From: Eledone cirrhosa
Lineage: Eukaryota
Length of the DNA: 64,000 bases
Direction of reading: 5' to 3'
Assembly (NCBI GenBank): GCA_964016885.1
Contig: OZ024741.1
Coordinates: forward strand, 115,444,001-115,508,000
This document shows positions 4,981 to 59,800 of this stretch, piece by piece. The position numbers and the translations under genes are program-made. Every line of letters begins with the position of its first letter. Within the stretch, counting starts at the first letter, position 1. The notes below the pieces were generated by a model. The model saw nothing but the letters and a program-made list of their open reading frames with translations. It searched no databases and had not been told where the DNA came from.

Positions 4981-5271
4981 TTTGTCATAGAATATAGATA
5001 TAACTCTGATTGAAAGATGTTTCTTGGGGTTGGGGTGGTTACATTTGTCATAGAATATAGATATAACTCTGAGTGAAAGATGTTCTTGAGGTGGGGCTTA
5101 CATTTGTCATAGAATATAGATATAACTATGATTGAAAGATGTTCTGGAGGTGGGGTTACATTTGTCATAGAATATAGATATAACACTGATTGAAAGATTT
5201 TGTTGATGTAGGGGTTACGTTTGTCATAGAATATAGATATAATCTGACTGAAAGATATTATTGAGGTAGGG

Positions 5272-36300: not shown

Positions 36301-37520
36301 ATTGAGGTAGGGGTTACATTTGTCATAGAATATTGATATAACTCTGTTTGAATGATGGTCTTGAGATGGGGGTTACATTTGTCATAGAATATAGATATAT
36401 CTCTGATTGAAAGATGTACTTGAAGTAGGGTTACATTTGTCATAGAATATAGATATAACTCTGATTGAAAGATGTCCTTGGGGTTGGGGTGGTTACATTT
36501 GTCATAGAATATAGATATAACTCTGAGTGAAAGATGTTCTTGAGGTGGGGGTTACATTTGTCATAGAATATAGATATAACTCTGATTGAAAAATTTTGTT
36601 GAGGTAGGGGTTACATTTGTTATAGAATATACATATAATTCTTATTGAAAGATGTTGTTGAGGTAGGGGTTACATTTGTCATAGAATATAGATATTACTA
36701 TGATTGAAAGATGTTCTTGAGGTAGGGGTTACATTTGTCATAGAATATAGATATAACACTGATTGAAAGAGGTTCTTGAGATGGGGGTTACATTTGACAT
36801 AGAATATAGATATAACACAGAATGAAAGATGATCTTGACGTAGGGTTACATTTGTCATAGAATATAGATATAACCCAGAATGAAAGATGATCTTGAGTTA
36901 GGGGTTACATTTGTCATAGAGTATAGATATAACTCTGATTGAAAGCTATTCTTGAGGTAGGGGTTACATTTGTTATAGAATTGAGATATAACTCTGTTTG
37001 AAAGATGTTCTTTAGATGGGGATACATATGTCATAGAATATAGATATAACTCAGATTGAAAGATGATCTTGAGGTGGGGGTTACATTTGTCATAGAATAT
37101 ACATATAACTCTGATTGAAAGATATTCTTGAGGTAGCGGTTACATTTGTCATAGAATATAGATATAACTCTGATAGAAAGATGTTATTGAGGTGGGGGTT
37201 ACATTTGTCATAGAATATAGATATATCTCTGATTGAAAGATGAGCTGGAGGTAGGGGTTACATTTGTCATAGAATATAGATATAACTCTGATGGAAAGAT
37301 GTTTTCTAGGTAGGGGTTACATTTGTCATAGAATATAGACATAACCCTGATCGAAAGATGTTCTTGAGATGGGGGTTACATTTGTCATGGAATATAGATA
37401 TAACTCTTATTGAAAGATTATCTTGAGGTAGGGGTAACATTTGTCATAGACTATAGATATAACTCTGAGTGAAAGATGTGCTTGGGGTGGGGGGGGGGGG
37501 GGGGTTTACATTTGTCATCG
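32880..37520 (+). repeat. Duplicated block, offset 2,552-2,611 bp (about 32880-34970 vs about 35440-37520)
   Basis: TCATAGAAAA at 33241/35793 (2,552), ACTCTAAC at 33671/36282 (2,611) and AAGCT at 34391/36943 (2,552). This indicates one monomer gained and then one lost. Confidence 0.8.
33096..33113 (+). repeat. G18 homopolymer at a monomer end (longest seen; G16 also at 361-376 and 37489-37504)
   Basis: Direct count from the sequence. Confidence 0.9.
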
Positions 37521-39969
37521 AATATAGATATCACTCTGATTGAAAGATATTCTAGATGTTAGGGTTACATCTGTCATAGAATATAGATATATCTCTGATT
37601 GAAAGATGTACTTGAAGTAGGGGTTACATTTGTCATAGAATATTGATATATCTCTGATTGAAAGATTTACTTGAAGTAGGGGTTACATTTGTCATAGAAT
37701 ATAGATATAACTCTGATGAAAGATTTTCTTGAGGTGGGGGTTACATTTGTCATAGAATATAGATATATCTCTGATTGAAAGATGTACTTGAAGGAGGGGT
37801 TACATTTGTCATAGAATATAGACATAACCATGATTGAAAGATGTTCTTGAGGTGGGGGTTACATTTGTCATAGAATATAGATATAACTCTGAATGCAAGA
37901 TATTCTTAGGTAGGGGTTACATTTGTCATAGAATATAGATATAACTATGATTGAAAGATTTTGTTGAGGTAGGCGTTACATTTGTCATAGAATATAGATA
38001 TAAGTCTGATTGAAAGATGTGGTTGAGGTAGGGGTTACATTTGTCATAGAATATAGATATAACACTGATTGAAAGATTTTGTTGAGGTAGGGGTTATATT
38101 TGTCATAGAATATAGATATAACTATGATTGAAAGATATTCCTGAGGTAAGGGTTACATTTGTCATAGAATAGAGATATAACGCTGATTTAAAGATTATCT
38201 TGAAGTAGGGGTTACATTTATCATAGGATATAGATATAACTCAGACTAAAAGATGATCTTGAGGTAGGGGTTACATTTGTTATAGAATATAGGTATAACT
38301 CTGATTGAAAGATGTTCTTGAGGTGGGGGTTACATTTGTCATAGAATATAGATATAACTCTGATAGAAAGATGTTCTTGATGTGGCGGTTACATTTGTCA
38401 TAGAATATAGATATAACTCTGATTGAAAGATGTTCTTGAGGTGGAGGTTATATTTGTCATAGAATATAGATATAACTCTGATTGAAAGATGTTCTTGAGG
38501 AGGGGGTTACATTTGTCATAGAATATAGATATAACTCTGATTGAAAGATGTTCTTGAGGTGGGGGTTACATTTGTCATAGAATATAGATATAACTCTGAT
38601 TGAAAGATGTTCTTGAGGTGGTGGTTACATTTGTCATAGTATATAGATATAACTCTGACTGAAAGATGTTCTTGAGGTGGGGGTTACATTTGTCATAGAA
38701 TATAGATATAACTCTGAGTGAAAGATGTTCTTGAGGTGGGGGTTACATTTTTCATAGAATATAGATATAACTCTGATAGAAAGATGTTCTTGGGGTAGGG
38801 GTTACATTTGTCATAGAATATACATATAACTCTGACTGAAAAATGTTCTTGAGGTGGGGGTTACATTTGTCTTAGAATATAGATATAACTCTGATAGAAA
38901 GATGTTCTTGGGGTAGGGGTTACGTTTGTCATAGAATATACATATAATTCTGACTGAAAGATGTTCTTGAGGTGGGGGTTACATTTGTCATAGGATATAG
39001 ATATAACCTTGATTGAAAGATGTTCTTGAGGTGGGGTTACATTTGTCATAGAATATAGATATAACTCTGATTGAAAGATGTTCTTGAGGTGGGGGTTACA
39101 TTTGTCATAGAATATAGATATAACTCTGATTGAAAGATGTTCTTGAGGTGGAGGTTACGTTTGTCATAGAATATAGATATAACTCTGATTGAAAAATGTT
39201 CTTGAGGTGGAGGTTACATTTGTCATAGAATATAGATATAACTCTGATTGAAAGATGTGGTTGAGGTGGGGGTTACATTTGTCATAGAGTATAGATATAA
39301 CTCTGACTGAAAGATGTTCTTGAGGTGGGGGTTACATTTGTCATAGAATATAGATATAACTCTGACTGAAAGATGTTCTTGAGGTGGGGGTTACATTTGT
39401 CATAGAATATAGATATAACTCTGATTGAAAGATGTGGTTGAGGTAGGGGTTACATTTGTCATAGAATATAGATATAACTATGATTGAAAGATATTCTTGA
39501 GGTAGGGGTTACATTTGTCATAGGATATAGATATAACTCAGACTAAAAGATGATCTTGAGGTAGGGGTTACATTTGTTATAGAATATAGATATAACTCTG
39601 ATTGAAAGATGTTCTTGAGGTGGGGGTTACATTTGTCATAGAATATAGATATAACTCTGATAGAAAGATGTTCTTGAGGTGGGGGTTACATCTGTCACAG
39701 AATATAGATATAACTCTGATTGAAAGATGTTCTTGATGTGGAGGTTACATTTTTTCATAGAATATAGATATAACTCTGATTGAAAGATGTTCTGGAGGTG
39801 GGGTTACATTTGTCATAGAATATAGATATAACTCAGAATAAAAGATGTTGTTGAGGTAGGGGTTACATTTGTCATGGAATATAGATATAACTCAGACTAA
39901 AAGATTATCTTGAGGTGGGGTTACATTTGTCATAGAATATAGATATAACTCTGATTGAAAGATGTTCTT

Positions 39970-42091
39970 GAGGTGAGGGTTACATTTGTCATAGAATATA
40001 GATATAACTCTGATTGAAAGATGTTCTTGAGGTGGAGGTTACATTTGTCATAGAATATAGATATAACTCTTGTTGAAAGATGTGGTTGAGGTGGGGGTTA
40101 CATTTGTCATAGAGTATAGATATAATCTCTGATAGAAATATGTTCTTGAGGTAGGGGTTACATTTGTCATAGAATATACATATAATTCTGACTGAAAGAT
40201 GTTCTTGAGGTGGGGGTTACATTTGTCATAGAATATAGATATACCTCTGAGTGAAAGATGTTCTTGAGGTGGGGGTTACATTTTTCATAGAATATAGATA
40301 TAACTCTGATTGAAAGATGTTCTTGAGGTGGGGGTTACATTTCTCATAGAATATAGATATAACTCTGATTGAAAGATGTTCTTGAGGTGGGGGTTACATT
40401 TGTCATAGGATATAGATATAACCTTGATTGAAAGATGTTCTTGAGGTGTAGTTACATTTGTCATAGAATATAGATATAACTCTGATTGAAAGATGTTCTT
40501 GAGGTGGGGGTTATATTTGTCATAGAATATAGATATAACTCTAATTGAAAGATGTTCTTGAGGTGGGGGTTACATTTGTCATAGAATATAGATATAACTC
40601 TGATTGAAAGATGTGGTTGAGGTAGGGGTTACATATGTCATAGAATATAGATATAACTCTGAATGCAAGATATTCTTAGGTAGGGGTTACATTTGTCATA
40701 GAATATAGATATAACTCTGATTGAAAGATTTTGTTGAGGTAGGGGTTACATTTGTCATAGAATATAGATATAACTATGATTGAAAGATGTTCTTGAGGTA
40801 GGGGTTACATTTGTCATAGAATATAGATATAACTCTGATTGAAAGATGTGGTTGAGGTAGGGGTTACATTTGTCATAGAATATAGATATAACACTGATTG
40901 AAAGATTATCTTGAAGTAGGGGTTAGATTTGTCATAGGATATAGATATAACTAAGACTAAAAGATGATCTTGAGGTAGGGGTTACATTTGTTATAGAATA
41001 TAGATATAACACTGATTGAAAGATTTTGTTGAGGTGAGGGTTACATTTGTCATAGAATATAGATATAACTCTGATTGAAAGATGTTCTTGAGGTGGAGGT
41101 TACATTTGTCATAGAATATAGATATAACTCTTGTTGAAAGATGTGGTTGAGGTGGGGGTTACATTTGTCATAGAGTATAGATATAATCTCTGATAGAAAT
41201 ATGTTCTTGAGGTAGGGGTTACATTTGTCATAGAATATACATATAATTCTGACTGAAAGATGTTCTTGAGGTGGGGGTTACATTTGTCATAGAATATAGA
41301 TATAACTCTGAGTGAAAGATGTTCTTGAGGTGGGGGTTACATTTTTCATAGAATATAGATATAACTCTGATTGAAAGATGTTCTTGAGGTGGGGGTTACA
41401 TTTCTCATAGAATATAGATATAACTCTGATTGAAAGATGTTCTTGAGGTGGGGGTTACATTTGTCATAGGATATAGATATAACCTTGATTGAAAGATGTT
41501 CTTGAGGTGTAGTTACATTTGTCATAGAATATAGATATAACTCTGATTGAAAGATGTTCTTGAGGTGGGGGTTATATTTGTCATAGAATATAGATATAAC
41601 TCTAATTGAAAGATGTTCTTGAGGTGGGGGTTACATTTGTCATAGAATATAGATATAACTCTGATTGAAAGATGTGGTTGAGGTAGGGGTTACATATGTC
41701 ATAGAATATAGATATAACTCTGAATGCAAGATATTCTTAGGTAGGGGTTACATTTGTCATAGAATATAGATATAACTCTGATTGAAAGATTTTGTTGAGG
41801 TAGGGGTTACATTTGTCATAGAATATAGATATAACTATGATTGAAAGATGTTCTTGAGGTAGGGGTTACATTTGTCATAGAATATAGATATAACTCTGAT
41901 TGAAAGATGTGGTTGAGGTAGGGGTTACATTTGTCATAGAATATAGATATAACACTGATTGAAAGATTATCTTGAAGTAGGGGTTAGATTTGTCATAGGA
42001 TATAGATATAACTAAGACTAAAAGATGATCTTGAGGTAGGGGTTACATTTGTTATAGAATATAGATATAACACTGATTGAAAGATTTTGTT
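39970..42091 (+). repeat. Near-perfect tandem duplication of an 18-monomer block (1,061 bp x 2)
   Basis: AGGTGAGGG at 39971/41032 and CTCTTGTTG at about 40067/41128. TTCTCATAG, TCTAATTG and TTAGATTT...CTAAGAC are all repeated at +1,061. Confidence 0.88.
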
Positions 42092-43454
42092 GAGGTAGGG
42101 GTTACATTTGTCATAGAATATAGATATAACTATGATTCAAAGATATTCTTGAGGTAGGGGTTACATTTGTCATAGAATATAGATATAACGCTGATTGAAA
42201 GATTATCTTGAAGTAGGGGTTACATTTGTCATAGGATATAGATATAACTCAGACTAAAAGATGATCTTGAGGTAGGGGTTACATTTGTTATAGAATATAG
42301 ATATAACTCTGATTGAAAGATGTTCTTGAGGTGGGGGTTACATTTGTCATAGAATATAGATATAACTCTGATAGAAAGATGTTCTTGAGGTGGGGGTTAC
42401 ATTTGTCATAGAATATAGATATAACTCTGATTGAAAGATGTTCTTGATGTGGCGGTTACTTTGTCATAGAATATAGATATAACTCTGATTGAAAGATGTT
42501 CTGGAGGTGGGGTTACATTTGTCATAGAATATAGATATAACTCAGACTAAAAGATTCTCTTGAGGTAGGGGTTACATTTGTCATAGAATATAGATATAAC
42601 TCTGATTGAAAGTTGTTCTTGAGGTGGGGGTTACATTTGTCATAGAATATAGATATAACTCTGATTGAAAGATGTGGTTGAGGTAGGGGTTACATTTGTC
42701 ATAGAATATAGATATAACTCTGAATGCAAGATATTCTTAGGTAGGGGTTACATTTGTCATAGAATATAGATATAACTCTGATTGAAAGATTTTGTTGAGG
42801 TAGGGGTTACATTTGTCATAGAATATAGATATAACTATGATTGAAAGATATTCTTGAGGTAGGGGTTACATTTGTCATAGAATATAGATATAACGCTGAT
42901 TGAAGGATTATCTTGAAGTAGGGGTTACATTTGTCATAGGATATAGATATAACTCAGACTAAAAGATGATCTTGAGGTAGGGGTTACATTTGTTATAGAA
43001 TATAGATATAACTCTGATTGAAAGATGTTCTTGAGGTAGGAGTTACATTTATCATAGAATATAGATATAACTCTGATAGAAAGATGTTCTTGGGGTGGGG
43101 GATACATTTGTCATAGAATATAGATATAACTCTGATTAAAAGATGTTCTTGATGTGGAGGTTACATTTGTCATAGAATATAGATATAACTCTGATTGAAA
43201 GATGTTTTGGAGGTGGGGTTACATTTGTCATAGAATATAGATATAACTCAGACTAAAAGATTTTGTTGAGGTAGGGGTTACATCTGTCATAGAATATAGA
43301 TATAACTCAGACTAAAAGATTATCTCGAGGTGGGGGTTACATTTGTCATAGAATATAGATATAACTCTGATTGAAAGATGTTCTTGAGGTGGGGGTTACA
43401 TTTGTCATAGAATATAGATATAACTCTGATTGAAAGATGTTCTTGAGGTGGAGG

Positions 43455-45110
43455 TTACATTTGTCATAGAATATAGATATAACTCTGATTGAAAGATGTG
43501 GTTGAGGTGGGGGCTACATTTGTCATAGAGTATAGATATAACTCTGATAGAAATATGTTCTTGGGGTAGGGGTTACATTTGTCATAGAATATACATATAA
43601 TTCTGACTGAAAGATGTTCTTGAGGTGGGGGTTACATTTGTCATAGAATATACATATAATTCTGACTGAAAAATGTTCTTGAGGTGGGGGTTACATTTGT
43701 CATAGAATATAGATATAACTCTGATAGAAAGATGTTGTTGGGGTAGGGGTTACATTTGTCATAGAATATACATATAATTCTGACTGAAAGATGTTCTTGA
43801 GGTGGGGGTTACATTTGTCAGAGAATATAGATATAACTCTGACTGAAAGATGTTCTTGAGGTGGGGGTTACATTTGTCATAGAATATACATATAATTCTG
43901 ACTGAAAGATGTTCTTGAGGTGGGGGTTACATTTGTCAGAGAATATAGATATAACTCTGACTGAAAGATGTTCTTGAGGTGGGGGTTACATTTGTCATAG
44001 AATATAGATATAACTCTGACTGAAAGATGTTCGTGAGGTGGGGGTTACATTTGTCATAGAATATAGATATAACCCTGATAGAAAGATGTTCTTGGGGTAG
44101 GGGTTACATTTGTCATAGAATATATATATAACTCTGTTTGAAAGATGTTCTTGAGGTGGGTGTTACATTTGTCATAGAATATATATATAACTCTGACTGA
44201 AAGATATTATTGAGGGAGGGGTTACAATTGTCATAGAATATAAATATAACTCTGATTGAAAGATGTACTTGAAGTAGGGGTTACATTTGTCATAGAATAT
44301 AGATATAACTCTGATTGAAAGATGTGGTTGAGGTGGGGGCTACATTTGTCATAGAGTATAGATATAACTCTGATAGAAATATGTTCTTGGGGTAGGGGTT
44401 ACATTTGTCATAGAATATACATATAATTCTGACTGAAAGATGTTCTTGAGGTGGGGGTTACATTTGTCATAGAATATACATATAATTCTGACTGAAAAAT
44501 GTTCTTGAGGTGGGGGTTACATTTGTCATAGAATATAGATATAACTCTGATAGAAAGATGTTGTTGGGGTAGGGGTTACATTTGTCATAGAATATACATA
44601 TAATTCTGACTGAAAGATGTTCTTGAGGTGGGGGTTACATTTGTCAGAGAATATAGATATAACTCTGACTGAAAGATGTTCTTGAGGTGGGGGTTACATT
44701 TGTCATAGAATATACATATAATTCTGACTGAAAGATGTTCTTGAGGTGGGGGTTACATTTGTCAGAGAATATAGATATAACTCTGACTGAAAGATGTTCT
44801 TGAGGTGGGGGTTACATTTGTCATAGAATATAGATATAACTCTGACTGAAAGATGTTCGTGAGGTGGGGGTTACATTTGTCATAGAATATAGATATAACC
44901 CTGATAGAAAGATGTTCTTGGGGTAGGGGTTACATTTGTCATAGAATATATATATAACTCTGTTTGAAAGATGTTCTTGAGGTGGGTGTTACATTTGTCA
45001 TAGAATATATATATAACTCTGACTGAAAGATATTATTGAGGGAGGGGTTACAATTGTCATAGAATATAAATATAACTCTGATTGAAAGATGTACTTGAAG
45101 TAGGGGTTAC
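43455..45110 (+). repeat. Near-perfect tandem duplication of a 14-monomer block (826 bp x 2)
   Basis: The C of GGGCTAC lies at 43514 and 44340 (826 = 14 x 59). GTCAGAG, TTCGTGAGG and GGTGGGTGTT are repeated at the same offset. Confidence 0.88.
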
Positions 45111-46811
45111 ATTTGTCATAGAATATAGATATAACTCTGATTGAAAGATGTTCTTGAGATGGGGGTTACATTTGTCATAGAATATAGATATATCTCTGAT
45201 TGAAAGATGTTCTTGAAGTAGGGGTTACATTTGTCATAGAATATAGATATAACTCTGATTGAAAGATGTTCTTGAGGTGGGGGTTACATTTGTCATAGAA
45301 TATAGATATAACTCTGATTGAAAGATGTTCTTGAGGTGGGCGTTACATTTGTCATAGAATATAGATATAACTCTGATTGAAAGATGTGGTTGAGGTAGGG
45401 GTTACATTTATCATAGTATATAGATATAACCCTGATTGAAACATTTTGTTGAGGTGGGGGTTACATTTGTCATAGAATATAGATATAACTCTCATTGAAA
45501 GATTTTGTTGAGGTGGGGGTTACATTTGTCATAGAATATAGATATAACTCTGATTGAAAGATTTTGTTGAGGTGGGGGTTACATTTGTCATAGAATATAG
45601 ATATAACTCTGACTGAAAGATATTATTGAGGGAGGGGTTACAATTGTCATAGAATATAAATATAACTCTGATTTAAAGATGTACTTGAAGTAGGGGTTAC
45701 ATTTGTCATAGAATATAGATATATCTCTGATTGAAAGATGTACATGAAGTAGGGGTTACATTTGTCATAGAATATAGATATAACTCTGATTGAAAGATGT
45801 TCTTGAGATGGGGGTTACATTTGTCATAGAATATAGATATATCTCTGAATGAAATATGTACTTGAAGTAGGGGTTACATTTGTCATAGAATATAGATATA
45901 ACTATGATTGAAAGATATTCTTGAGGTAGGGGTTACATTTGTCATAGAATATAGATATAACGCTGATTGAAAGATTATCTTGAAGTAGGGGTTACATTTG
46001 TCATAGGATATAGATATAACTCAGACTAAAAGATGATCTTGAGGTAGGGGTTACATTTGTTATAGAATATAGATATAACTCTGATTGAAAGATATTCTTG
46101 AGGTAGGGGTTACATTTGTCATAGAATATAGATATAACTCTGACTGAAAGATATTATTGAGGTAGGGGTTACAATTGTCATAGAATATAGATATACCTCT
46201 GAGTGAAAGATGTTCTTGAGGTGGGGGTTACATTTTTCATAAAATATAGATATAACTCTGATAGAAAGATGTTCTTGGGGTAGGGGTTACATTTGTCATA
46301 GAATATAGATATAATTCTGACTGAAAGATGTTCTTGAGGTGGGGGTTACATTTGTCATAGAATATACATATAATTCTGACTGAAAAATTTTCTTGAGGTG
46401 GGGGTTACATTTGTCATAGAATATAGATATAACTCTGATAGAAAGATGTTCTTGGGGTAGGGGTTACATTTGTCATAGAATATACATATAATTCTGAATG
46501 AAAGATGTTCTTGAGGTGGGGGTTACATTTGTCATAGAATATAGATATAACTCTGACTGAAAGATGTTCTTGGGGTGGGGGTTACATTTGTCATAGAATA
46601 TACATATAATTCTGACTGAAAGATGTTCTTGAGGTGGGGGTTACATTTGTCATAGAATATAGATATAACCCTGATAGAAAGATGTTCATGGGGTAGGCGT
46701 TACATTTGTCATAGAATATATATATAACTCTGTTTGAAAGATGTTCTTGAGGTGGGGGTTACATTTGTCATAGAATATAGATATAACTCTGACTGAAAGA
46801 TATTATTGAGG

Positions 46812-46854
46812 AATGCACTGGGTAATTGCTGGCCTTGTGCCTAAAGTAGAAACA
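46812..46854 (+). mobile_element. 43-bp non-satellite insertion (AATGCACTGGGTAATTGCTGGCCTTGTGCCTAAAGTAGAAACA) with a 10-bp flanking direct repeat; probable 5'-truncated SINE/LINE 3' end
   Basis: ATTATTGAGG lies at 46802-46811 and 46855-46864. Empty-site monomers GATATTATTGAGGGAGGGGTTACAATTG occur near 44203, 45029, 45619, 47501, 49093, 50803 and 52396. The insertion and duplication are directly visible; the retroposon origin and orientation are inferred. Confidence 0.65.
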
Positions 46855-48899
46855 ATTATTGAGGGAGGGGTAACAATTGTCATAGAATATAAATATAACT
46901 CTGATTGAAAGATGTACTTGAAGTAGGGGTTACATTTGTCATATAATATAGATATAACTCTGATTGAAAGATGTTCATGAGGTGGGGGTTACATCTGTCA
47001 TAGAATATAGATATAATTCTGATGGAAAGATGTTCTTGAGGTGGGGGTTACATTTGTCATAGAATATAGATATAACTCTGATTGAAAGATGTGGTTGAGG
47101 TAGGGGTTACATTTGTCATAGTATATAGATATAACTCTGATAGACAGATGTTCTTGGGGTAGGGGTTACATTTGTCATAGAATATACATATAATTCTGAC
47201 TGAAAGATGTTCTTGAGGTGGGGGTTACATTTGTCATAGAATAGAGATATAACACTGATTGAAAGATTTTGTTGAGGTGGGGGTTATATTTGTCATAGAA
47301 TATAGATATAACTCTGACTGAAAGATGTTCTTGAGGTGGAGGTTACATTTGTCATAGAATATAGATATAACCCTGATAGAAAGATGTTTATGGGGTAGGG
47401 GTTACATTTGTCATAGAATATATATATAACTCTGTTTGAAAGATGTTCTTGAGGTGGGGGCTACATTTGTCATAAAATATAGATATAACTCTGACTGAAA
47501 GATATTATTGAGGGAGGGGTTACAATTGTCATAGAATATAAATATAACTCTGATTGAAAGATGTTCTTGATGTGGAGGTTACATTTGTCATAGAATATAG
47601 ATATAACTCTGATTGAAAGATGTTCTGGAGGTGGGGTTACATTTGTCATAGAATATAGATATAACTCAGACTAAAAGATTCTCTTGAGGTAGTGGTTACA
47701 TTTGTTATAGAATATAGATATAACTCTGATTGAAAGATGTTCTTGAGGTGGGGGTTACATTTGTCATAGAATATATATATATAACTCTGATTGAAAGATG
47801 TGGTTGAGGTAGGGGTTACATTTGTCATAGAATATAGATATAACTCTGAATGCAAGATATTCTTAGGTAGGGGTTACATTTGTCATAGAATATAGATATA
47901 ACTCTGATTGAAAGATTTTGTTGAGGTAGGGGTTACATTTGTCATAGAATATAGATATAACTATGATTGAAAGATGTTCTTGAGGTAGGGGTTACATTTG
48001 TCATAGAATATAAATATAACCCTGATTGAAAGATTATCTTGAGGTAGGGGTTACATTTGTCATAGAATATAGATATAACTCTGATTGAAAGATATTCTTG
48101 AGGTAGGGGTTACATTTGTCATAGAATATAGATATAACGCTGATTGAAAGATTATCTTGAAGTAGGGGTTACATTTGTCATAGGATATAGATATAACTCA
48201 GACTAAAAGATGATCTTGAGGTAGGGGTTACATTTGTCATAGAATATAGATATAACTCTGATTGAAAGATATTCTTGAGGTAGGGGTTACATTTGTCATA
48301 GAATATAGATATAACGCTGATTGAAAGATTATCTTGAAGTAGGGGTTACATTTGTCATAGGATATAGATATAACTCAGACTAAAAGATGTTCTGGAGGTG
48401 GGGTTACATTTGTCATAGAATATAGATATAACTCAGACTAAAAGATTATCTCGAGGTGGGGGTTACATTTGTCATAGAATATAGATATAACTCTGATTGA
48501 AAGATGTTCTTGAGGTGGGGGTTACATTTGTCATAGAATATAGATATAACTCTGATTGAAAGATGTTCTTGAGGTGGAGGTTACATTTGTCATAGAATAT
48601 AGATATAACTCTGATTGAAAGATGTGGTTGAGGTGGGGGTTACATTTGTCATAGAATATATATATAATTCTGACTGAAAGATGTTTTTGAGGTGGGGGTT
48701 ACATTTGTCATAGAATATACATATAATTCTGACTGAAAAATGTTCTTGAGGTGGGGGTTACATTTGTCATAGAATATAGATATAACTCTGATAGAAAGAT
48801 GTTCTTGGGGTAGGGGTTACAATTGTCATAGAATATACATATAATTCTGACTGAAAGATGTTCTTGAGGTGGGGGTTACATTTGTCATAGAATATACAT

Positions 48900-51800
48900 A
48901 TAATTCTGACTGAAAGATGTTCTTGAGGTGGGGGTTACATTTGTCATAGAATATAGATATAACTCTGACTGAAAGATGTTCTTGAGGTGGGGGTTACATT
49001 TGTCATAGAATATATATATAACTCTGTTTGAAAGATGTTCTTGAGGTGGGGGTTACATTTGTCATAGAATATAGATATAACTCTGACTGAAAGATATTAT
49101 TGAGGGAGGGGTTACAATTGTCATAGAATATAAATATAACTCTGATTGAAAGATGTACTTGAAGTAGGGGTTACATTTGTCATAGAATATAGATATAACT
49201 CTGATTGAAAGATGTTCTTGAGATGGGGGTTACATTTGTCATAGAATATAGATATATCTCTGATTGAAAGATGTACTTGAAGTAGGGGTTACATTTGTCA
49301 TAGAATATAGATATAACTCTGATTGAAAGATGTTCTTGAGATGGGGGTTACATTTGTCATAGAATATAGATATAACTCTGATTGAAAGATGTTCTTGAGG
49401 TGGGCGTTACATTTGTCATAGAATATAGATATAACTCTGATTGAAAGATGTGGTTGAGGTAGGGGTTACATTTGTCATAGTATATAGATATAACCCTGAT
49501 TGAAACATTTCGTTGAGGTGGGGGTTACATTTGTCATAGAATATAGATATAACTCTGATAGATAGATGTTCTTGGGGTAGGGGTTACATTTGTCATAGAA
49601 TATAGATATATCTCTGATTGAAAGATGTACTTGAAGTAGGGGTTACATTTGTCATAGAATATAGATATAACTCTCATTGAAAGATTTTGTTGAGGTGGGG
49701 GTTACATTTGTCATAGAATATAGATATAACTCTGATTGAAAGATTTTGTTGAGGTGGGGGTTACATTTGTCATAGAATAGAGATATAACACTGATTGAAA
49801 GATTTTGTTGAGGTGGGGGTTACGTTTGTCATAGAATATAGATATAACTCTGATTGAAAGATGTTCTTGAGGTGGGGTTACATTTGTCATAGTATATAGA
49901 TATAACTCTGATTGAAAGATTTTGTTGAGGTGGGGGTTACATTTGTCATAGAATATAGATATAACTGTGATTGAAAGATTTTGTTGAGATGGGGGTTACA
50001 TTTGTCACAGAATATAGATATATGTCTGATAGAAAGATGATCTTGAGGTAGGGGTTACACTTGTCCTAGGATATAGATATAACCTTGATTGAAAGATGTT
50101 CTTGAGTTAGGGGTTACATTTGTCATACAGTATAGATATAACGCTGATTGAAAGATTATCTTGAAGTAGGGGTTACATTTGTCATAGGATATAGATATAA
50201 CTCAGATTAAAAGATGATCTTGAGGTAGGGGTTACATTTGTTATAGAATATAGATATAACTCTGATTGAAAGATATTCTTGAGGTAGGGGTTACATTTGT
50301 CATAGAATCTAGATATAACTCTGACTGAAAGATATTATTGAGGTAGGGGTTACAATTGTCATAGAATATAGATATACCTCTGAGTGAAAGATGTTCTTGA
50401 GGTGGGGGTTACATTTTTCATAGAATATAGATATAACTCTGATAGAAAGATGTTCTTGGGGTAGGGTTTACATTTGTCATAGAATATACATATAATTCTG
50501 ACTGAAAGATGTTCTTGAGGTGGGGGTTACATTTGTCATAGAATATAGATATAACTCTGACTGAAAGATGTTCTTGGGGTGGGGGTTACATTTGTCATAG
50601 AATATACATATAATTCTGACTGAAAGATGTTCTTGAGGTGGGGGTTACATTTGTCATAGAATATAGATATAACTCTGACTGAAAGATGTTCTTGAGGTGG
50701 GGGTTACATTTGTCATAGAATATAAATATAACTCTGATTGAAAGATATTCTTGAGGTAGGGGTTACATTTGTCATAGAATATAGATATAACTCTGACTGA
50801 AAGATATTATTGAGGGAGGGGTTACAATTGTCATAGAATATAAATATAACTATGATTGAAAGATGTTCTTGAGATGGGGGTTACATTTGTCATAGAATAT
50901 AGATATATCTCTGATTGAAAGATGTACTTGAAGTAGGGGTTACATTTGTCATAGAATATAGATATAACACTGATTGAAAGATGTTCTTGAGGTGGGGGTT
51001 ACATTTGTAATAGAATATAGATATAACTCTGATTGAAAGATGTTCTTGAGGTGGGCGTTACATTTGTCATAGAATATAGATATAACTCTGATTGAAAGAT
51101 GTGGTTGAGGTAGGGGTTACATTTGTCATAGTATATAGATATAACCCTGATTGAAACATTTCGTTGAGGTGGGGGTTACATTTGTCATAGAATATAGATA
51201 TAACTCTCATTGAAAGATTTTGTTGAGGTGGGGGTTACATTTGTCATAGAATATAGACATAACTCTGATTGAAAGATTTTGTTGAGGTGGGGGTTACATT
51301 TGTCATAGAATAGAGATATAACACTGATTGAAAGATTTTGTTGAGGTGGGGGTTACGTTTGTCATAGAATATAGATATAACTCTGATTGAAAGATTTTGT
51401 TGAGGTGGGGGTTACATTTGTCATAGTATATAGATATAACTCTGATTGAAAGATTCTGCTGAGGTGGGGATTACATTTGTCATAGAATATAGATATAACT
51501 GTGATTGAAAGATTTTGTTGAGATGGGGGTTACATTTATCATAAAATATAGATATAACTCTGATAGAAAGATGATCTTGAGGTAGGGGTTACACTTGTCC
51601 TAGGATATAGATATAACCTTGATTGAAAGATGTTCTTGAGGTAGGGGTTACGTTTGTCATACAGTATAGATATAACTCTGTTTGAAAGATGTTCTTGAGA
51701 TGGGGGTTACATTTGTCATAGAATATAGATATAACTCTGATTGAAAGATGTTCTTGAGATGGGGGTTACATTTGTCATAGAATATAGATATATCTCTGAA

Positions 51801-53750
51801 TGAAATATGTACTTGAAGTAGGGGTTACATTTGTCATAGAATATAGATATAACTATGATTGAAAGATATTCTTGAGGTAGGGGTTACATTTGTCATAGAA
51901 TATAGATATAACGCTGATTGAAAGATTATCTTGAAGTAGGGGTTACATTTGTCATAGGATATAGATATAAATCAGACTAAAAGATGATCTTGAGGTAGGG
52001 GTTACATTTGTTATAGAATATAGATATAACTCTGATTGAAAGATATTGTTGAGGTAGGGGTTACATTTGTCATAGAATATAGATATAACTCTGACTGAAA
52101 GATATTATTGAGGTAGGGGTTACAATTGTCATAGAATATAGATATACCTCTGAGTGAAAGATGTTCTTGAGGTGGGGGTTACATTTGTCATAGAATATAG
52201 ATATAACTCTGACTGAAAGATGTTCTTCGGGTGGGGGTTACATTTGTCATAGAATATACATATAATTCTGACTGAAAGATGTTCATGGGGTAGGGGTTAC
52301 ATTTGTCATAGAATATAAATATAACTCTGTTTGAAAGATGTTCTTGAGGTGGGGGTTACATTTGTCATAGAATATAGATATAACTCTGACTGAAAGATAT
52401 TATTGAGGGAGGGGTTACAATTGTCATAGAATATAAATATAACTCTGATTGAAAGATGTACTTGAAGTAGGGGTTACATTTGTCATAGAATATAGATATA
52501 ACTCTGATTGAAAGATGTTCTTGACACGGGGGTTACATTTCTCATAGAATATAGATATAATTCTGATTGAAAGATGTTCTTGAGGTGTGGGTTACATTTG
52601 TCATAGAATATAGATATAACTCTGATTGAAAGATGTGGTTGAGGTAGGGGTTACATTTGTCATAGTATATAGATATAACCCTGATTGAAACATTTTGTTG
52701 AGGTAGGTGTTACATTTGTCATAGAATATAGATATAACTCTCATTGAAAGATTTTGTTGAGGTGGGGGTTACATTTGTCATAGAATATAGATATAACTCT
52801 GATTGAAAGATTTTGTTGAGGTGGGGGTTACATTTGTCATAGAATAGAGATATAACACTGATTGAAAGATTTTTTGGAGGTGGGGGTTACATTTGTCATA
52901 GAATATAGATATAACTCTGATTGAAAGAGTTTGTTGAGGTGGGGGTTACATTTGTCATAGTATATAGATATAACTCTGATTGAAAGATTTTGTTGAGGTG
53001 GGGGTTACATTTGTCATAGAATATAGATATAACTGTGATTGAAAGATTTTGTTGAGATGGGGGTTACATTTGTCATAGAATATAGATATAACTCTGATAG
53101 AAAGATGATCTTGAGGTAGGGGTTACACTTGTCCTAGGATATAGATATAACCTTGATTGAAAGATGTTCTTGAGGTAGGGGTTACATTTGTCATAGAGTA
53201 TAGATATAACTCTGTTTGAAAGATGTTCTTGAGATGGGGGTTACATTTGTCATAGAATATAGATATAACTCTGATTGAAAGATATTCTTGAGGTGGGGGT
53301 TATATTTGTCATAGAATATAGATATAACTCTGATTGAAAGATGTTCTTGAGATGGGGGTTACATTTGTCATAGAATATAGATATATCTCTGAATGAAATA
53401 TGTACTTGAAGTAGGGGTTACATTTGTCATAGAATATAGATATAACTATGATTGAAAGATATTCTTGAGGTAGGGGTTACATTTGTCATAGAATATAGAT
53501 ATAACGCTGATTGAAAGATTATCTTGAAGTAGGGCTTACATTTGTCATAGGATATAGATATAACTCAGACTAAAAGATGATCTTGAGGTAGGGGTTACAT
53601 TTGTTATAGAATATAGATATAACTCTGATTGAAAGATATTCTTGAGGTAGGGGTTACATTTGTCATAGAATATAGATATAACTCTGACTGAAAGATATTA
53701 TTGAGGTAGGGGTTACAATTGTCATAGAATATAGATATAACACTGATTGA
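48900..53750 (+). repeat. Degenerate ~1.5-1.65-kb (26-28-monomer) higher-order repeat, about 3 copies
   Basis: ACACTTGTCCTAGG occurs at 50057, 51591 and 53125 (spacing 1,534 = 26 x 59). AACCCTGATTGAAACATT occurs at 49492, 51143 and 52677. Confidence 0.7.
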
Positions 53751-53829
53751 AAGATATTCTTGAGGTAGGGGTTACATTTGTCATAGAATAGAGATAAAAC
53801 ACTGATTGAATGATTTTGTTGATGTAGAG

Positions 53830-55690
53830 GTTACGTTTGTCATAGAATATAGATATAATCTGACTGAAAGATATTATTGAGGTAGGGGTTACAATTGTCA
53901 TAGAATATAGATATAACTCTGATTGAAAGATATTCTTGAGATAGGGGTTGCATTTGTCATAGAATAGTGATATAACACTGATTGAAAGATTTTGTTGATG
54001 TAGGGGTTACATTTGTCATAGAATATAGATATAACTCTGACTGAAAGATATTATTGAGGTAGGGGTTACAATTGTCATAGAATATAGATATAACTCTGAT
54101 CGAAAGAAATACTTGAGATGGGGGTTACATTTGTCATAGAATTGAGATATAACACTGATTGAAAGATGATCTTGAGGTAGGGTTACATTTGTCATAGAAT
54201 ATAGATATATCTCTGATTGAAAGATGTACTTGAAGTAGGGGTTACATTTGTCATAGAATATAGATATAACTCTGATTGAAAGATGTTCTTGAGGTGGGGG
54301 TTACATTTGTCATAGAATATAGATATAACTCTGATTGAAAGATGTGGTTGAGGTAGGGGTTACATTTGTCATAGAATATAGATATAACACTGATTGAAAG
54401 ATTTTGTTGAGGTGGGGGTTACATTTGTCATAGAATATAGATATAACTCTGATTGAAAGATTTTGTTGAGGTGGGGGTTACATTTGTCATAGTATATAGA
54501 TATAACTCTGATTGAATGATTTTGTTGAGGTGGGGGTTACATTTGTCATAGAATATAGATATAACTCTGATTGAAAGATTTTGTTGAGGTGGGGGGTTAC
54601 ATTTGTCATAGAATATAGATATAACTCTGATAGAAAGATGATCTTGAGATGGGGGTTACATTTGTCATAGAATATAGATATAACGCTGATTGAAAGATTA
54701 TCTTGAAGTAGGGGTTACATTTGTCATAGGATATAGATATAACTCAGACTAAAAGATGATCTTGAGGTAGGGGTTACATTTGTCATAGAATATAGATATA
54801 GCTCTGATTGAAAGATGTTCTTGAGGTAGGGGTTACATTTGTCATAGAATATAGATATAATCTGACTGAAAGATATTATTGAGGTAGGGGTTACAATTGT
54901 CATAGAATATAGATATAACTCTGATAGAAAGATATTCTTGAGGTAGGGGTTACATTTGTCATAGAGTAGAGATATAACACTGATTGAAAGATTTTGTTGA
55001 TGTAGGGGTTACATTTGTCATAGAATATAGATATAACTCTGACTGAAAGATATTATTGAGGAAGGGCTAACATTTGTCATTGAATATAGATATAACTCTG
55101 ATCGAAAGAAATACTTGAGGTGGGGGTTACATTTGTCATAGAATAGAGATATAACACTGATTGAAAGATGATCTTGAGGTGGGGTTACATTTGTCATAGA
55201 ATATAGATATATCTCTGATTGAAAGATGTACTTGAAGTAGGGTTTACATTTGTCATAGAATATAGATATAACTCTGATTGAAAGATGTTCTTGAGGTGGG
55301 GGTTACATTTGTCATAGAATATAGATATAACTCTGATTGAAAGATGTGGTTGAGGTAGGGGTTACATTTGTCATAGAATATAGATATAACACTGATTGAA
55401 AGATTTTGTTGAGGTGGGGGTTACATTTGTCATAGAATATAGATATAACTCTGATTGAAAGATTTTGTTGAGGTGGGGGTTACATTTGTCATAGTATATA
55501 GATATAACTCTGATTGAATGATTTTGTTGAGGTGGGGGTTACATTTGTCATAGAATATAGATATAACTCTGATTGAAAGATTTTGTTGAGGTGGGGGGTT
55601 ACATTTGTCATAGAATATAGATATAACTCTGATAGAAAGATGATCTTGAGATGGGGGTTACATTTGTCATAGAATATAGATATAACGCTG
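53830..55690 (+). repeat. Tandem duplication at offset 1,002 bp (17 monomers)
   Basis: TATAATCTGACTG at about 53854/54856 and ATCTCTG at 54209/55211. GATCGAAAGAAATAC, TGAATGATTTTG and the G6 variant are repeated at +1,002. Confidence 0.78.
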
Positions 55691-56899
55691 ATTGAAAGAT
55701 ATTCTTGAGGTGGGGGTTACATTTGTCATAGAATATTGATATAACTCTGATTGAAAGATGTTCTTGAGGTGGGGGTTACATTTGTCATAGAATATAGATA
55801 TAACACTGATTGAAAGATTTTGTTGAGGTAGGGGTTACATTTGTCATAGAATATAGATATAACTATGATTGAAAGATGTTCTTGAGGTAGGGGTTACATT
55901 TGTCATAGAATATAGATATAACTCTGATTGAAAGATGTGGTTGAGGTAGGGGTTACATTTGTCATAGAATATAGATATAACTCTGAATGCAAGATATTCT
56001 TAGGTAGGGGTTACATTTGTCATAGAATATAGATATAACACTGATTGAAAGATTTTGTTGAGGTAGGGGTTACATTTGTCATAGAATATAGATATATCTA
56101 TGATTGAAAGATGTACTTGAAGTAGGGGTTACATTTGTCATAGAATATAGATATAACTCTGATTGAAAGATGTTCTTGAGGTGGGGGTTACATTTGTCAT
56201 AGAATATAGATATAACTCTGATTGAAAGATTTTGTTGAGGTGGGGGGTTACATTTGTCATAGAATAGAGATATAACACTGATTGAAAGATTTTGTTGAGG
56301 TGGGGGTTACATTTGTCATAAAATATAGATATAACTCTGATTGAAAGATTTTGTTGAGGTGGGGGTTACATTTGTCATAGTATATAGATATAACTCTGAT
56401 TGAATGATTTTGTTGAGGTGGGGGTTACATTTGTCATAGAATATAGATATAACTCAGACTAAAAGATGATCTTGAGGTAGGAGTTACATTTGTCATAGAA
56501 TATAGATATAGCTCTGATTGAAAGATGTTCTTGAGGTAGGGGTTACATTTGTCATAGAATATAGATATAATCTGACTGAAATATATTATTGAGGTAGGGG
56601 TTACAATTGTCATAGAATATAGATATAACTCTGATTGAAATATATTCTTGAGGTAGGGGTTACATTTGTCATAGAGTAGAGATATAACACTGATTAAAAG
56701 ATTTTGTTGATGTAGGGGTTACATTTGTCATAGAATATAGATATAACTCTGACTGGAAGATATTATTGAGGTAGGGGTTACAATTGTCATTGAATATAGA
56801 TATAACTCTGATCGAAAGAAATACTTGAGGTGGGGGTTACATTTGTCATAGAATAGAGATATAACACTGATTTAAAGATGATCTTGAGGTGGGGGTTAC

Positions 56900-59800
56900 A
56901 TTTGTCATAGAATATAGATATAACTCTGATTGAAAGATGTTCTTGAGGTGGGGGTTACATTTGTCATAGAGTATAGATATAACTCTGATTGAAAGATGTT
57001 CTTGTGGTGGGGGTTACATTTGTCATAGAATATAGATATAACTCTGATTGAAAGATGTTCTTGAGGTGGGGGTTACATTTGTCATAGAATATAGATATAA
57101 CTCTGATTGAAAGATGTTCTTGAGGTGGGGGTTGCATTTGTCATAGAATATAGACATAACACTGATTGAAAGATTTTGTTGAGGTAGGTGTTACATTTGT
57201 CATAGAATATAGATATAACTATGATTGAAAGATGTTCTTGAGGTAGGGGTTACATTTGTCATAGAATATAGATATAACTCTGACTGAAAGATGTGGTTGA
57301 TGTAGGGGTTACATTTGTCATAGAATATAGATATAACTCTGAATGCAAGATATTCCTAGGTACGGGTTACATTTGTCAGAGAATATAGATATAACGCTGA
57401 TTGAATGATTATCTTGAAGTAGGGTTTACATTTGTCATAGAATATAGATATATCTCTGATAGAAAGATGTTCTTGAGGTGGGGGTTACATTTGTCATAGA
57501 ATATAGATATAACTCTGATTAAAAGATGTTCTTGAGATGGGGGTTACATTTGTCATAGAGTATAGATATATCTCTGAATGAAATATGTACTTGAAGTAGG
57601 GGTTACAATTGTTATAGAATTTAGATATAACTCTGATTGAAAGATATTCTTGAGGTAGGGGTTACATTTGTCATAGAATATAGATATAACCCTGATTGAA
57701 AGATTTTGTTGAGGTGGAGGTTACATTTGTCATAGAATATAGATATAACTCTCATTGAAAGATTTTGTTGAGGTGGGGGTTACATTTGTCATAGAATATA
57801 GATATAACTCTGATTGAAAGATTTTGTTGAGATGGGGGTTACATTTGTCATAGAATAGAGATATAACACTGATTGAAAGATTGTGTTGAGGTGGGATTTA
57901 CATTTGTCATAGAATATAGATATAACTCTGATTGAAAGATTTTGTTGAGGTGGGGGTTACATTTGTCATAGTATATAGATATAACTCTGATTGAAAGATT
58001 TTGTTGATGTAGGGGTTACATTTGTCTTAGAATATAGATATAACTCTGATAGAAAGATGATCTTGAGGTAGGGGTTACACTTGTCCTAGGATATAGATAT
58101 AACCTTGATTGAAAGATGTTCTTGAGGTGGGGGTTACATTTGTCATAGAGTATAGATATAACTCTGTTTGAAAGATGTTCTTGAGATGGGGGTTACATTT
58201 GTCATAGAATATACATATATCTCTGAATGAAATATGTACTTGAAGTAGGGGTTACATTTGTCATAGAATATAGATATAACTATGATTGAAAGATTATCTT
58301 GAAGGAGGGGTTACATTTGTCATAGGATATAGATATAACTCAGACTAAAAGATGATCTTGAGGTAGGGGTTACATTTGTTATAGAATATAGTTATAACTC
58401 TGATTGAAAGATATTCTTGAGGTAGGGGTTACATTTGTCATAGAATATAGATATAACTCTGACTGAAAGGTATTATTGAGGTAGGGGTTACATTTGTCAT
58501 AGAATATAGATATAACTTTGATTGAAAGATATTCTTGAGGTAGGGGTTACATTTGTCATAGAATAGAGATATAACACTGATTGAAAGATTTTGTTGATGT
58601 AGGGGTTACATTTGTCATAGAATATAGATATAACTCTGACTGAAAGATATTATTGAGGTAAGGTTACAATTGTCATAGAATATAGATATAACTCTGATCG
58701 AAAGTAATACTTGAGGTGGGGGTTACATTTGTCATAGAATAGAGATATAACACTGATTGAAAGATGATCTTGAGGTAGGGTTACATTTGTCATAGAATAT
58801 AGATATAACTCTGTTTGAAAGATGTTCTTGAGATGGGGGTTACATATGTCATAGAATATAGATATAACTCAGATTAAAAGATGTTCTTGAGGTGGGGTTA
58901 CATTTGACATAGAAAATAGATATAACTCTGTTTGAAAGATGTTCTTGAGGTGGGGGTTACATTTGTCATAGAATATAGATATAACTCTGATTGAAAGATG
59001 TTCTTGAGATGGGGGTTACGTTTGTCATAGAATATAGATATAACTCTGATTGAAAGATGTTCTTGAGGTGGGGTTACATTTGTCATAGAATATAGATATA
59101 ACTCTGATTGAAAGATGTTCTTGAGGTGGGGTTACATTTGTCATAGAATATAGATATAACTCTGATTGAAAGATGTTCTTGAGATGGGGGTTACATTTGT
59201 CATAGAATATAGATATAACTCTGATTGAAAGATGTTCTTGAGGTGGGGTTACATTTGTCATAGAATATAGATATAACTCTGATTGAAAGATGTTCTTGAG
59301 GTGGGGGTTACATTTGTCATAGAATATAGATATAACTCTGATTGAAAGATGTTCTTGAGATGGGGGTTACATTTGTCATAGAATATAGATATTTCTCTGA
59401 ATGAAATATGTATTTGAAGTAGGGGTTACATTTGTCATAGAATATAGATATAACTATGATTGAAAGATTATCTTGAAGGAGGTGTTACATTTGTCATAGG
59501 ATATAGATATAACTCTGATCGAAAGAAATACTTGAGGTGGGGGTTACATATGTCATAGAATATGGATATAACTCAGATTGAAAGATGTTCTTGAGGTGGG
59601 GTTACATTTGTCATAGAATATAGATATAACTCTGTTTGAAAGATGTTCTTGAGGTGGGGGTTACATTTGTCATAGAGTATAGATATAACTCTGATTGAAA
59701 GATGTTCTTGAGGTGGGGGTTACATTTGTCATAGAATATAGATATAACTCTGATTGAAAGATGTTCTTGAGGTGGGGGTTACATTTGTCATAGAATATAG

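What the first reader, a model, noticed from the sequence alone, without database searches (positions are those of the whole stretch)
46802..46864. Lone 43-bp foreign insert with a perfect 10-bp target-site duplication inside 64 kb of pure satellite
Seen: the only non-satellite sequence in the window sits between two copies of ATTATTGAGG. At least seven intact empty-site copies of the same monomer variant (about 44.2-52.4 kb) carry a single ATTATTGAGG, so the event added 43 + 10 bp to one monomer only. Established: variable-length TSDs with heavy 5' truncation are hallmarks of target-primed reverse transcription by non-LTR retrotransposons and their SINEs. Inference: this is a minimal retroposition or templated-repair footprint that was not propagated by later duplications, so it is a unique anchor and relative time-stamp in the array.
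Basis: partly seen in the sequence, partly recalled or inferred. Interest (0 to 1): 0.75.

Follow-up and report, generated by a model that had tools for sequence, protein, structure and literature searches.

The report
Truncated SINE tail inside satellite array
The 43-base insert is the exact tail end of one of this genome's most abundant short jumping elements, sitting between two copies of that element's preferred ATTAT landing site in a rare satellite variant, so it is likely an ordinary cut-short retrotransposition, likely made by the enzymes of a long jumping element whose end looks similar.

Summary
Confirmed: 43 bp (46812-46854) between two ATTATTGAGG copies, with seven empty sister monomers. 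The insert is the exact 3' terminus of a ~186-bp SINE-like repeat; the 43-mer has 22,781 exact genome copies. 27 of 29 sampled copies are followed by ATTAT, and duplications start there.

The 389-kb array holds only two foreign inserts. Both are this SINE and both sit in the rare (2%) ATTATTGAGG monomer variant; the other is full-length, 6 kb upstream of the window. Short truncated copies with duplications are common, about 40 loci start at this base, and a sample showed no 43-nt spike.

The likely mobiliser is an intact L1/Tx1-like LINE in (ATT)n tracts, sharing polarity and a CUUGU-loop tail motif. This scan noted that pairing before on other DNA of this genome.

The 'anchor/time-stamp' value is weak: nearest sisters differ by 3% and the array has 594 clusters of unique 31-mers. 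No public run showed the junction. Verdict: an ordinary retroposition scar.

The parts
46802..46811 (+). Left copy of the 10-bp target-site duplication, ATTATTGAGG; starts with the family's ATTAT(T) target motif
   Evidence: a single copy at 7 empty sisters
46812..46854 (+). 3'-terminal 43 nt of a ~186-bp SINE-like repeat, 5'-truncated, blunt 5' junction (0 nt microhomology)
   Evidence: 22,781 exact genome copies; context; junction
46830..46842 (+). Predicted small stem-loop (TGGC / CTTGT loop / GCCT), loop ending 16 nt from the element end, same spacing as in the L1/Tx1-like LINE tails; inferred recognition signal
   Evidence: not the minimum-energy fold of the SINE RNA
46855..46864 (+). Right copy of the target-site duplication
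46872..46872 (+). T>A private to the filled monomer among the 8 members of its sub-variant; the same short motif occurs 62 times elsewhere in the array
46764..46875 (+). Host satellite monomer (112 bp = 59 + 53), rare ATTATTGAGG variant
44206..52408 (+). Span holding the seven empty sister sites (44206, 45032, 45622, 47504, 49096, 50806, 52399)
1..64000 (+). 59-bp satellite; part of a single 388.8-kb array at G000:C2:115432490-115821300 (about 6,590 monomers, one orientation, no N)

Best explanation
The insert is the last 43 bases of a very abundant ~186-bp SINE-like repeat, flanked by a 10-bp duplication that starts at the family's ATTAT target, and it was likely written in by target-primed reverse transcription that stopped early, likely using the endonuclease and reverse transcriptase of an (ATT)n-targeting L1/Tx1-like LINE. 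Shown: the identity of the insert, the family's target motif and duplications, and that both inserts in the 389-kb array sit at the rare monomer variant that carries ATTATT. Also shown: intact LINE copies lie in ATT tracts with the same polarity and a similar tail. Inferred steps: (1) the LINE protein binds the SINE RNA at a CUUGU-loop hairpin 16 nt from its end; (2) it nicks the bottom strand just 5' of ATTATT, and the freed 3' end primes, perhaps pairing with an AUUAU end of the RNA; (3) synthesis or second-strand joining ends after 43 nt; (4) a top-strand cut 10 nt downstream and fill-in give the duplication. A two-base change from the common monomer created a target in an otherwise target-poor satellite. 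The insert has no promoter and is predicted to be inert. Odds: truncated SINE retroposition about 0.92; this LINE family as the mobiliser about 0.65.
For: Identity and ends: 22,781 exact copies, control 0. 28 of 30 printed ends continue 5' into one SINE body (2 are short truncations), and all stop at the same 3' base. Target motif: 27 of 29 ends are followed by ATTAT. In 15 of 30 rows the same ATTAT-like string recurs within about 155 nt upstream, at or next to the copy's 5' boundary; in L029 both sides begin GTTATT, so those letters are target-derived. Short truncated copies: 27 of 41 examined ends have a duplication of 8 or more bases, with inserts of 27-54 nt in 25 of the 27. Array census: 2 foreign inserts among 6,583 intervals, both at ATTATTGAGG (131 sites, 2% of monomers); ATTATT occupies 137 of 777,618 strand positions. 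The second insert is a full-length copy with a 14-bp duplication and a perfect empty sister 4.1 kb away. LINE: APE + RT + zf-RVT, 1,152-codon open frame; closest solved relative is human L1 ORF2p, E 1e-52. 30 of 30 copies end in the tail motif followed by ATT, and 6 of 6 full-length copies have ATT on both sides. Ungapped identity of the last 24 nt to the SINE is 15 and 16 for two LINE subfamilies, 7 for Dong/R4, and at most 12 for 901 non-SINE background 24-mers. The stem is 88% paired, with 3 of 4 pairs changed on both sides and an invariant loop.
Against: No read or contig in 7 public runs spans the junction. The LINE tail was first found by a motif search built on the SINE tail, so the shuffle p-values are optimistic. 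The covariation rests on about three lineages and on a structure I derived from these sequences. The fourth pair is U-U in this insert, and the minimum-energy folds of the insert and of a full SINE do not form this hairpin, whereas the LINE tail does. These LINE copies lie in long ATT tracts while SINE copies mostly use short ATTAT sites. CR1, L2 and RTE families were not surveyed systematically. Short-copy duplications were preselected for an upstream ATTAT and many are low-complexity. ARAGORN and Rfam found no tRNA match in the SINE head.
Confidence: 0.85

Rival explanations
1. Same truncated SINE insertion, but mobilised by another LINE: the abundant (TAA)n-targeting Dong/R4-like element, or an RTE, CR1 or L2 family not examined here.
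For: A Dong/R4-like family (1,141-codon ORF with RT, zinc knuckle and restriction-like endonuclease motifs read by eye) is abundant, intact and sits in the same microsatellites. RTE-related SINEs show duplications correlated with their terminal microsatellite (PMC6007223 abstract).
Against: Dong-like copies insert with TAA on their sense strand, opposite to the SINE, which lies antisense to them in L085 and L088. Tail identity is 7 of 24, at background level. The one RTE-like copy inspected shows no matching tail in the 250 bases printed around its ORF end.
Confidence: 0.25
2. Repair-associated capture: a double-strand break in the satellite was patched with a fragment of SINE DNA or cDNA, without LINE endonuclease.
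For: The insert is very short, there is a private T>A 8 nt downstream of the duplication, and 22,781 templates are available.
Against: The fragment ends exactly at the element's 3' terminus. The duplication starts at the family motif and has the family's length range (8-25). A second, full-length copy chose the same monomer variant and phase.
Confidence: 0.04
3. A full-length SINE inserted and its 5' 143 nt were later deleted by satellite recombination.
For: Satellite arrays turn over, and a full-length copy exists in the same array.
Against: The deletion would have to end exactly at the duplication boundary with no microhomology. Primary truncations of this size are common genome-wide.
Confidence: 0.03
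4. Assembly or library artefact.
For: No junction was found in the runs laid, and the region is a long satellite.
Against: The insert is an endogenous element end with the family's own target and duplication, not adapter sequence. The array assembles without N and in one orientation. The runs are contigs that drop rare variants, or RAD-seq, from samples not shown to be the assembled individual.
Confidence: 0.03

Closest known systems
SINEU / Tx1-Mar pair of crocodilians; Kibi (TC)n and Koshi (TTC)n Tx1-clade LINEs (Kojima 2015, PMC4494074; passages and section 16 read)
   Same: A SINE shares a sequence-specific target with a Tx1-clade LINE and is inferred to be trans-mobilised by it; Tx1-clade LINEs target microsatellites; serial insertions at one target.
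   Different: There the link rests on a shared target and shared heads, and the SINE is snRNA-headed. Here the target is ATTAT/(ATT)n and the SINE and LINE also share a ~24-nt tail with a putative hairpin.
Stringent SINE/LINE pairs with a 3' stem-loop: eel UnaSINE/UnaL2, zebrafish ZfL2 (PMC4176376, abstract); maize/sorghum L1 lineage and Chlamydomonas SINEX-3/L1-1 (PMC3747384, passages). The eel pair's names are partly recalled.
   Same: Conserved loop, variable stem with compensatory changes, close to the 3' end; variable-length duplication; 5' truncation.
   Different: Those pairs are L2-clade in animals or L1-clade in plants and algae, with longer shared tails and, for L2, experimental proof. 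Here the shared part is short and untested.
Octopus tRNA-derived SINEs OK/OR1/OR2 and 'tRNA-Core' SINEs (cited in PMC4824008, PMC4758252, PMC8967140; passages). L1-Tx1, Dong-R4, Penelope and SINEs listed as recently active in O. vulgaris (PMC13282606, part 1 of 3).
   Same: The same cast of abundant young repeats; a short element with A/B-box-like motifs.
   Different: No consensus of these families was available to align, so family identity is untested. That the host is an octopod is my inference from recall and from this repeat cast; no call names it.

Membership tests
SINE (non-autonomous non-LTR retroposon) | Short, high-copy, interspersed element with fixed 3' end | tested here: met
   ~186 bp; 22,781 exact copies of the last 43 nt, on both strands
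SINE (non-autonomous non-LTR retroposon) | Variable-length target-site duplications and 5' truncation | tested here: met
   15 of 30 rows; 27 of 41 short ends with 8-25 bp duplications (preselected for ATTAT)
SINE (non-autonomous non-LTR retroposon) | Head derived from a Pol III RNA (tRNA) with A and B boxes | tested here: inconclusive
   A- and B-box-like motifs seen by eye against recalled consensus; ARAGORN 0 hits in 3 loci; Rfam 0 hits at E<=5
SINE (non-autonomous non-LTR retroposon) | Pol III transcription and trans-mobilisation by a LINE | not testable with these tools
   needs RNA data and a retrotransposition assay
SINE/LINE stringent pair | 3' tail shared with a LINE, with conserved stem-loop | tested here: inconclusive
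   15-16 of 24 identical, same spacing, 3 of 4 pairs covary; but short, selected post hoc, and not the minimum-energy fold in the SINE
SINE/LINE stringent pair | Same target sequence and polarity as the LINE | tested here: met
   SINE 27 of 29 ATTAT; LINE 30 of 30 3' ends and 6 of 6 5' ends in ATT
L1/Tx1 group LINE (candidate partner) | ORF1 plus ORF2 with APE endonuclease, RT and C-terminal zinc motif | tested here: met
   PF03372, PF00078, PF13966; upstream ORF without Pfam hit; best PDB hit human L1 ORF2p
Tx1 clade proper | RT phylogeny with named Tx1-clade elements | not tested
   homologue search returned 35 proteins, none named; Atlas unavailable; the label 'Tx1-like' rests on L1 affinity plus target specificity
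MetaSINE / CORE-SINE superfamilies | Central Meta or CORE domain | tested here: inconclusive
   by-eye comparison only with bivalve members in the PMC4824008 supplement: no extended match, only a ~15-nt A-rich GTACC motif; cephalopod members are in figures not held
Dong/R4-mobilised element | Tail and polarity shared with the Dong/R4-like LINE | tested here: not met
   7 of 24 identity; opposite strand of the microsatellite

The most novel reading that the evidence does not exclude
An animal L1/Tx1-group LINE recognises its RNA stringently through a CUUGU pentaloop hairpin at a fixed 16 nt from the end, and a SINE with tens of thousands of young copies mimics it. Because the pair's endonuclease needs ATTATT, a two-base satellite variant acts as the only landing pad in a 389-kb array, so satellite point variants decide where retroposons can enter. 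The 43-nt scar carries the whole putative tail signal.
Probability: 0.5. Interest if true: 0.5.

Novelty: new member of a known kind. Interest (0 to 1): 0.25.

Why it matters
The insertion itself is routine. It is useful as a clean read-out of target choice, because the empty site is present many times over: both SINE entries into a 389-kb array chose the 2% of monomers that carry ATTATT. That fits sequence-driven targeting, and it explains part of the array's low SINE density (2 in 389 kb against 14 in 160 kb of nearby DNA; ATTATT 0.35 against 1.66 per kb). If the tail-sharing partnership with an L1/Tx1-like LINE holds, it would be an animal case of stringent RNA recognition in the L1 group. 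My five literature searches showed such recognition only for plants and algae. The scan has already noted this pairing several times on other DNA of this genome, so this locus adds an example rather than the idea.

Tried and rejected
Truncation hotspot at the 5' hairpin: the insert starts at the loop of an upstream CCAGT/ACTGG inverted repeat, but 0 of 27 duplication-flanked short copies were 43 nt; 6 were 39-42 and 10 were 51-54 nt, the latter near the edge of the search window. No spike was seen, though the sample is small and covers only the first 40 loci of the list.

Dong/R4-like LINE as partner: rejected on polarity and tail.

Penelope-like family as partner: it contains a tail-like 41-mer, but internally and between two copies of an ATTATT-starting 16-mer, so it is a passenger insertion and not a shared end.

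L007 and L027 as LINE 3' ends: their upstream sequences differ from each other, so they were read as short truncations.

MetaSINE membership, recalled from memory: not borne out by eye.

Public runs: 11 were listed and 7 laid (X1, X5, X6, X7, X9, X10, X11). None bridged a junction. X5 showed the empty form (skip of 53), and depth at 100% identity was zero at 46785-46808 and 46869-46890. This is no evidence either way, because contigs drop rare variants and RAD-seq samples little.

The homologue search gave no names, and the Atlas was unavailable.

Full report
OBSERVATION. The window is one 59-bp satellite. Splitting it into monomers gave 1,081 intervals, of which one is 112 bp and the rest 57-72 bp. 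The long one holds ATTATTGAGG at 46802-46811, 43 foreign bases at 46812-46854, and ATTATTGAGG again at 46855-46864. Seven empty sisters of the same sub-variant lie between 44206 and 52399.

WHAT THE INSERT IS. The window is G000:C2:115444001-115508000 in a 3.0-Gb genome. The 43-mer has 11,467 + 11,314 exact copies and the reversed control has 0. In 30 fetched loci it is the 3' terminus of a ~186-bp element whose head carries A- and B-box-like motifs. Those motifs were judged by eye against recalled consensus; ARAGORN and Rfam gave nothing. Of 29 distinct ends, 27 are followed by ATTAT (19 by ATTATT), one by ATTAAT and one by GTTATT. In 15 of 30 rows the downstream string recurs within about 155 nt upstream, at or next to the copy's 5' boundary, as a 9-30 bp duplication, some of them low-complexity. 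L029 has GTTATT on both sides, showing that these letters come from the target. Our duplication fits this: 10 bp, starting ATTATT, with a blunt 5' junction.

HOW UNUSUAL IS IT. A pattern for short copies with an upstream ATTAT gave 1,932 raw matches, overlaps included. I fetched the first 40 loci: 27 of 41 ends had duplications of 8-25 bp, with inserts of 27-54 nt in 25 cases and none at exactly 43. These were preselected for ATTAT, so they show that such copies are common, not how common. A pattern for copies starting at the same base gave 63 rows, which I count by hand as 46 places or 40 loci including ours; their duplications were not checked. The insert is therefore one of many.

THE ARRAY. 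I read the whole array: C2:115432490-115821300, 388,809 bp, 6,584 monomer anchors, one orientation, no N. It holds essentially all genome copies of a diagnostic 31-mer (2,416 of 2,417). Six intervals exceed 80 bp. Four are dimers with a missed anchor and two are inserts: ours, and a full-length copy of the same SINE about 6.2 kb upstream of the window with a 14-bp duplication ATTATTGAGGTAGG. Both sit at the same base of the ATTATTGAGG variant, which makes up 131 monomers (2%). ATTAT covers 1,047 and ATTATT 137 of 777,618 strand positions. Two random hits would both fall on ATTAT with p about 2e-6, and both on ATTATT given ATTAT with p about 0.017; n is only 2. SINE tails number 14 in 160 kb of nearby non-array DNA against 2 in the array, and ATTATT is 4.7-fold rarer in the array.

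TIME-STAMP. The full-length copy is well bracketed: an empty sister 4,112 bp away is identical over 576 bp left and 848 bp right. The 43-bp insert is not. Its nearest empty sisters differ at 8 of 250 and 21 of 490 positions, so it only post-dates a ~3% divergence. Its perfect match to a very common SINE variant suggests it is young. As an anchor it is one of 594 clusters of unique 31-mers.

WHICH ENZYME. Two intact LINE families occupy the same microsatellites. A Dong/R4-like family (RT by Pfam; clade label from motifs read by eye and recall) ends in TAA on its sense strand, opposite to the SINE, and shares 7 of 24 terminal bases. An L1-group family (APE, RT, zf-RVT; 1,152-codon frame; best PDB hit human L1 ORF2p, E 1e-52) has the SINE's polarity. 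30 of 30 copies end in a fixed tail followed by ATT, and 6 of 6 full-length copies have ATT on both sides. A second subfamily has a related tail; a related ORF2 lies upstream in 7 of 12 fetched loci, 2 were SINEs and 3 had no ORF match. In SINE and LINE alike, a CTTGT loop ends 16 nt before ATTAT, closed by C-G, with stems AACC/GGTT, AGCC/GGCY and TGGC/GCCW. On 25 hand-picked ends the stem is 88% paired, 3 of 4 pairs change on both sides, and slid controls give 14-51%; I left out 3 of 28 candidates (one non-family, one with 17-nt spacing, one degraded SINE), and the window insert stood in for its identical row. Terminal identity is 15 and 16 of 24, against at most 12 for 901 background 24-mers after setting aside 16 SINE copies among 917. 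Against this: the tail was found by a motif search, the covariation reflects about three lineages, the minimum-energy folds of the SINE pair these bases differently, Tx1-clade placement was not tested by a tree (one search gave no names), and other LINE clades were not surveyed.

MECHANISM. Target-primed reverse transcription with early termination is established knowledge for non-LTR elements; its application here is inferred from the anatomy above. The inferred order is: tail recognition, bottom-strand nick at ATTATT, priming, 43 nt of cDNA, top-strand cut 10 nt downstream, fill-in. Sequence alone cannot say whether the first 5-6 bases of the right-hand repeat were templated by target or RNA.

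READS. No record in 7 laid runs bridged a junction; one sample's contigs showed the empty form. The insert is neither confirmed nor refuted by these data.

LITERATURE SEEN. PMC4824008: passages, section 9, supplement part 1 of 4 and a search in it; its figures and the remaining supplement parts could bear on superfamily assignment. PMC4758252, PMC3747384, PMC3531059, PMC8967140: passages. PMC4494074: passages and section 16. PMC13282606: part 1 of 3. PMC6007223 and PMC4176376: abstract and outline. Five searches returned no paper describing this SINE-LINE pair; the library lacks most subscription papers and Repbase reports.

EARLIER NOTES OF THIS SCAN. After forming this reading I found that several unreviewed notes on other DNA of this genome report the same SINE, target and LINE pairing; none concerns this locus. 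They are not independent support.

VERDICT. A real, ordinary, 5'-truncated SINE insertion, with a neat in-array demonstration of target choice. Interest 0.25.

Noticed in passing
L031:1376-1585 (G000:C2:115437814, about 6.2 kb upstream of the window): Full-length SINE in the same array and monomer variant, 14-bp duplication, with an empty sister block identical over about 1.4 kb lying 4,112 bp away: a better time-stamp than the finding itself.
   Followed up: yes
L132-L141, L041, L091 (e.g. G000:C1:329465912): A Penelope-like family (GIY-YIG-like ORF read by eye; often in inverted pairs) carries a fixed ~41-nt older SINE tail between two copies of an ATTATT-starting 16-mer: the same kind of mini-insertion, but propagated as cargo.
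   Followed up: partly
G000:C5:2111680-2112364: Seven copies at 108-bp period, each containing a SINE tail truncated at the same base as the finding: a mini-insert that was amplified in tandem.
   Followed up: no
L056:1500-2100 (G000:C10:24928101): Tandem array with ~120-bp period made of a truncated SINE plus its duplication: a SINE-derived minisatellite.
   Followed up: no
L007:1100-1545, L020, L033: Head-to-tail stacks of SINE copies sharing one duplication; each insertion re-creates the ATTAT target. An older subfamily has an extra C-rich segment in the tail.
   Followed up: partly
L082-L091: Abundant young Dong/R4-like LINE with intact 1,140-1,141-codon ORFs in (TAA)n tracts (64,557 first-look candidates); it shares microsatellites with the L1/Tx1-like family but on the opposite strand.
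   Followed up: partly
window 1-37500: Monomers with variable poly-G runs (62-72 bp) recur in multi-kilobase duplicated blocks, e.g. at 12005, 16740, 24240 and 31035; run lengths may partly be sequencing error.
   Followed up: no
G000:C2:115432490-115821300: The 59-bp satellite is a single-locus, single-orientation 389-kb array on a 416-Mb contig, with mean 2.6-3.7 differences per monomer from the consensus; function unknown, possibly a chromosome-specific marker.
   Followed up: partly
L040:1900-2010: Two SINE tails in inverted orientation joined at the hairpin region, resembling a fold-back or twin-priming product.
   Followed up: no
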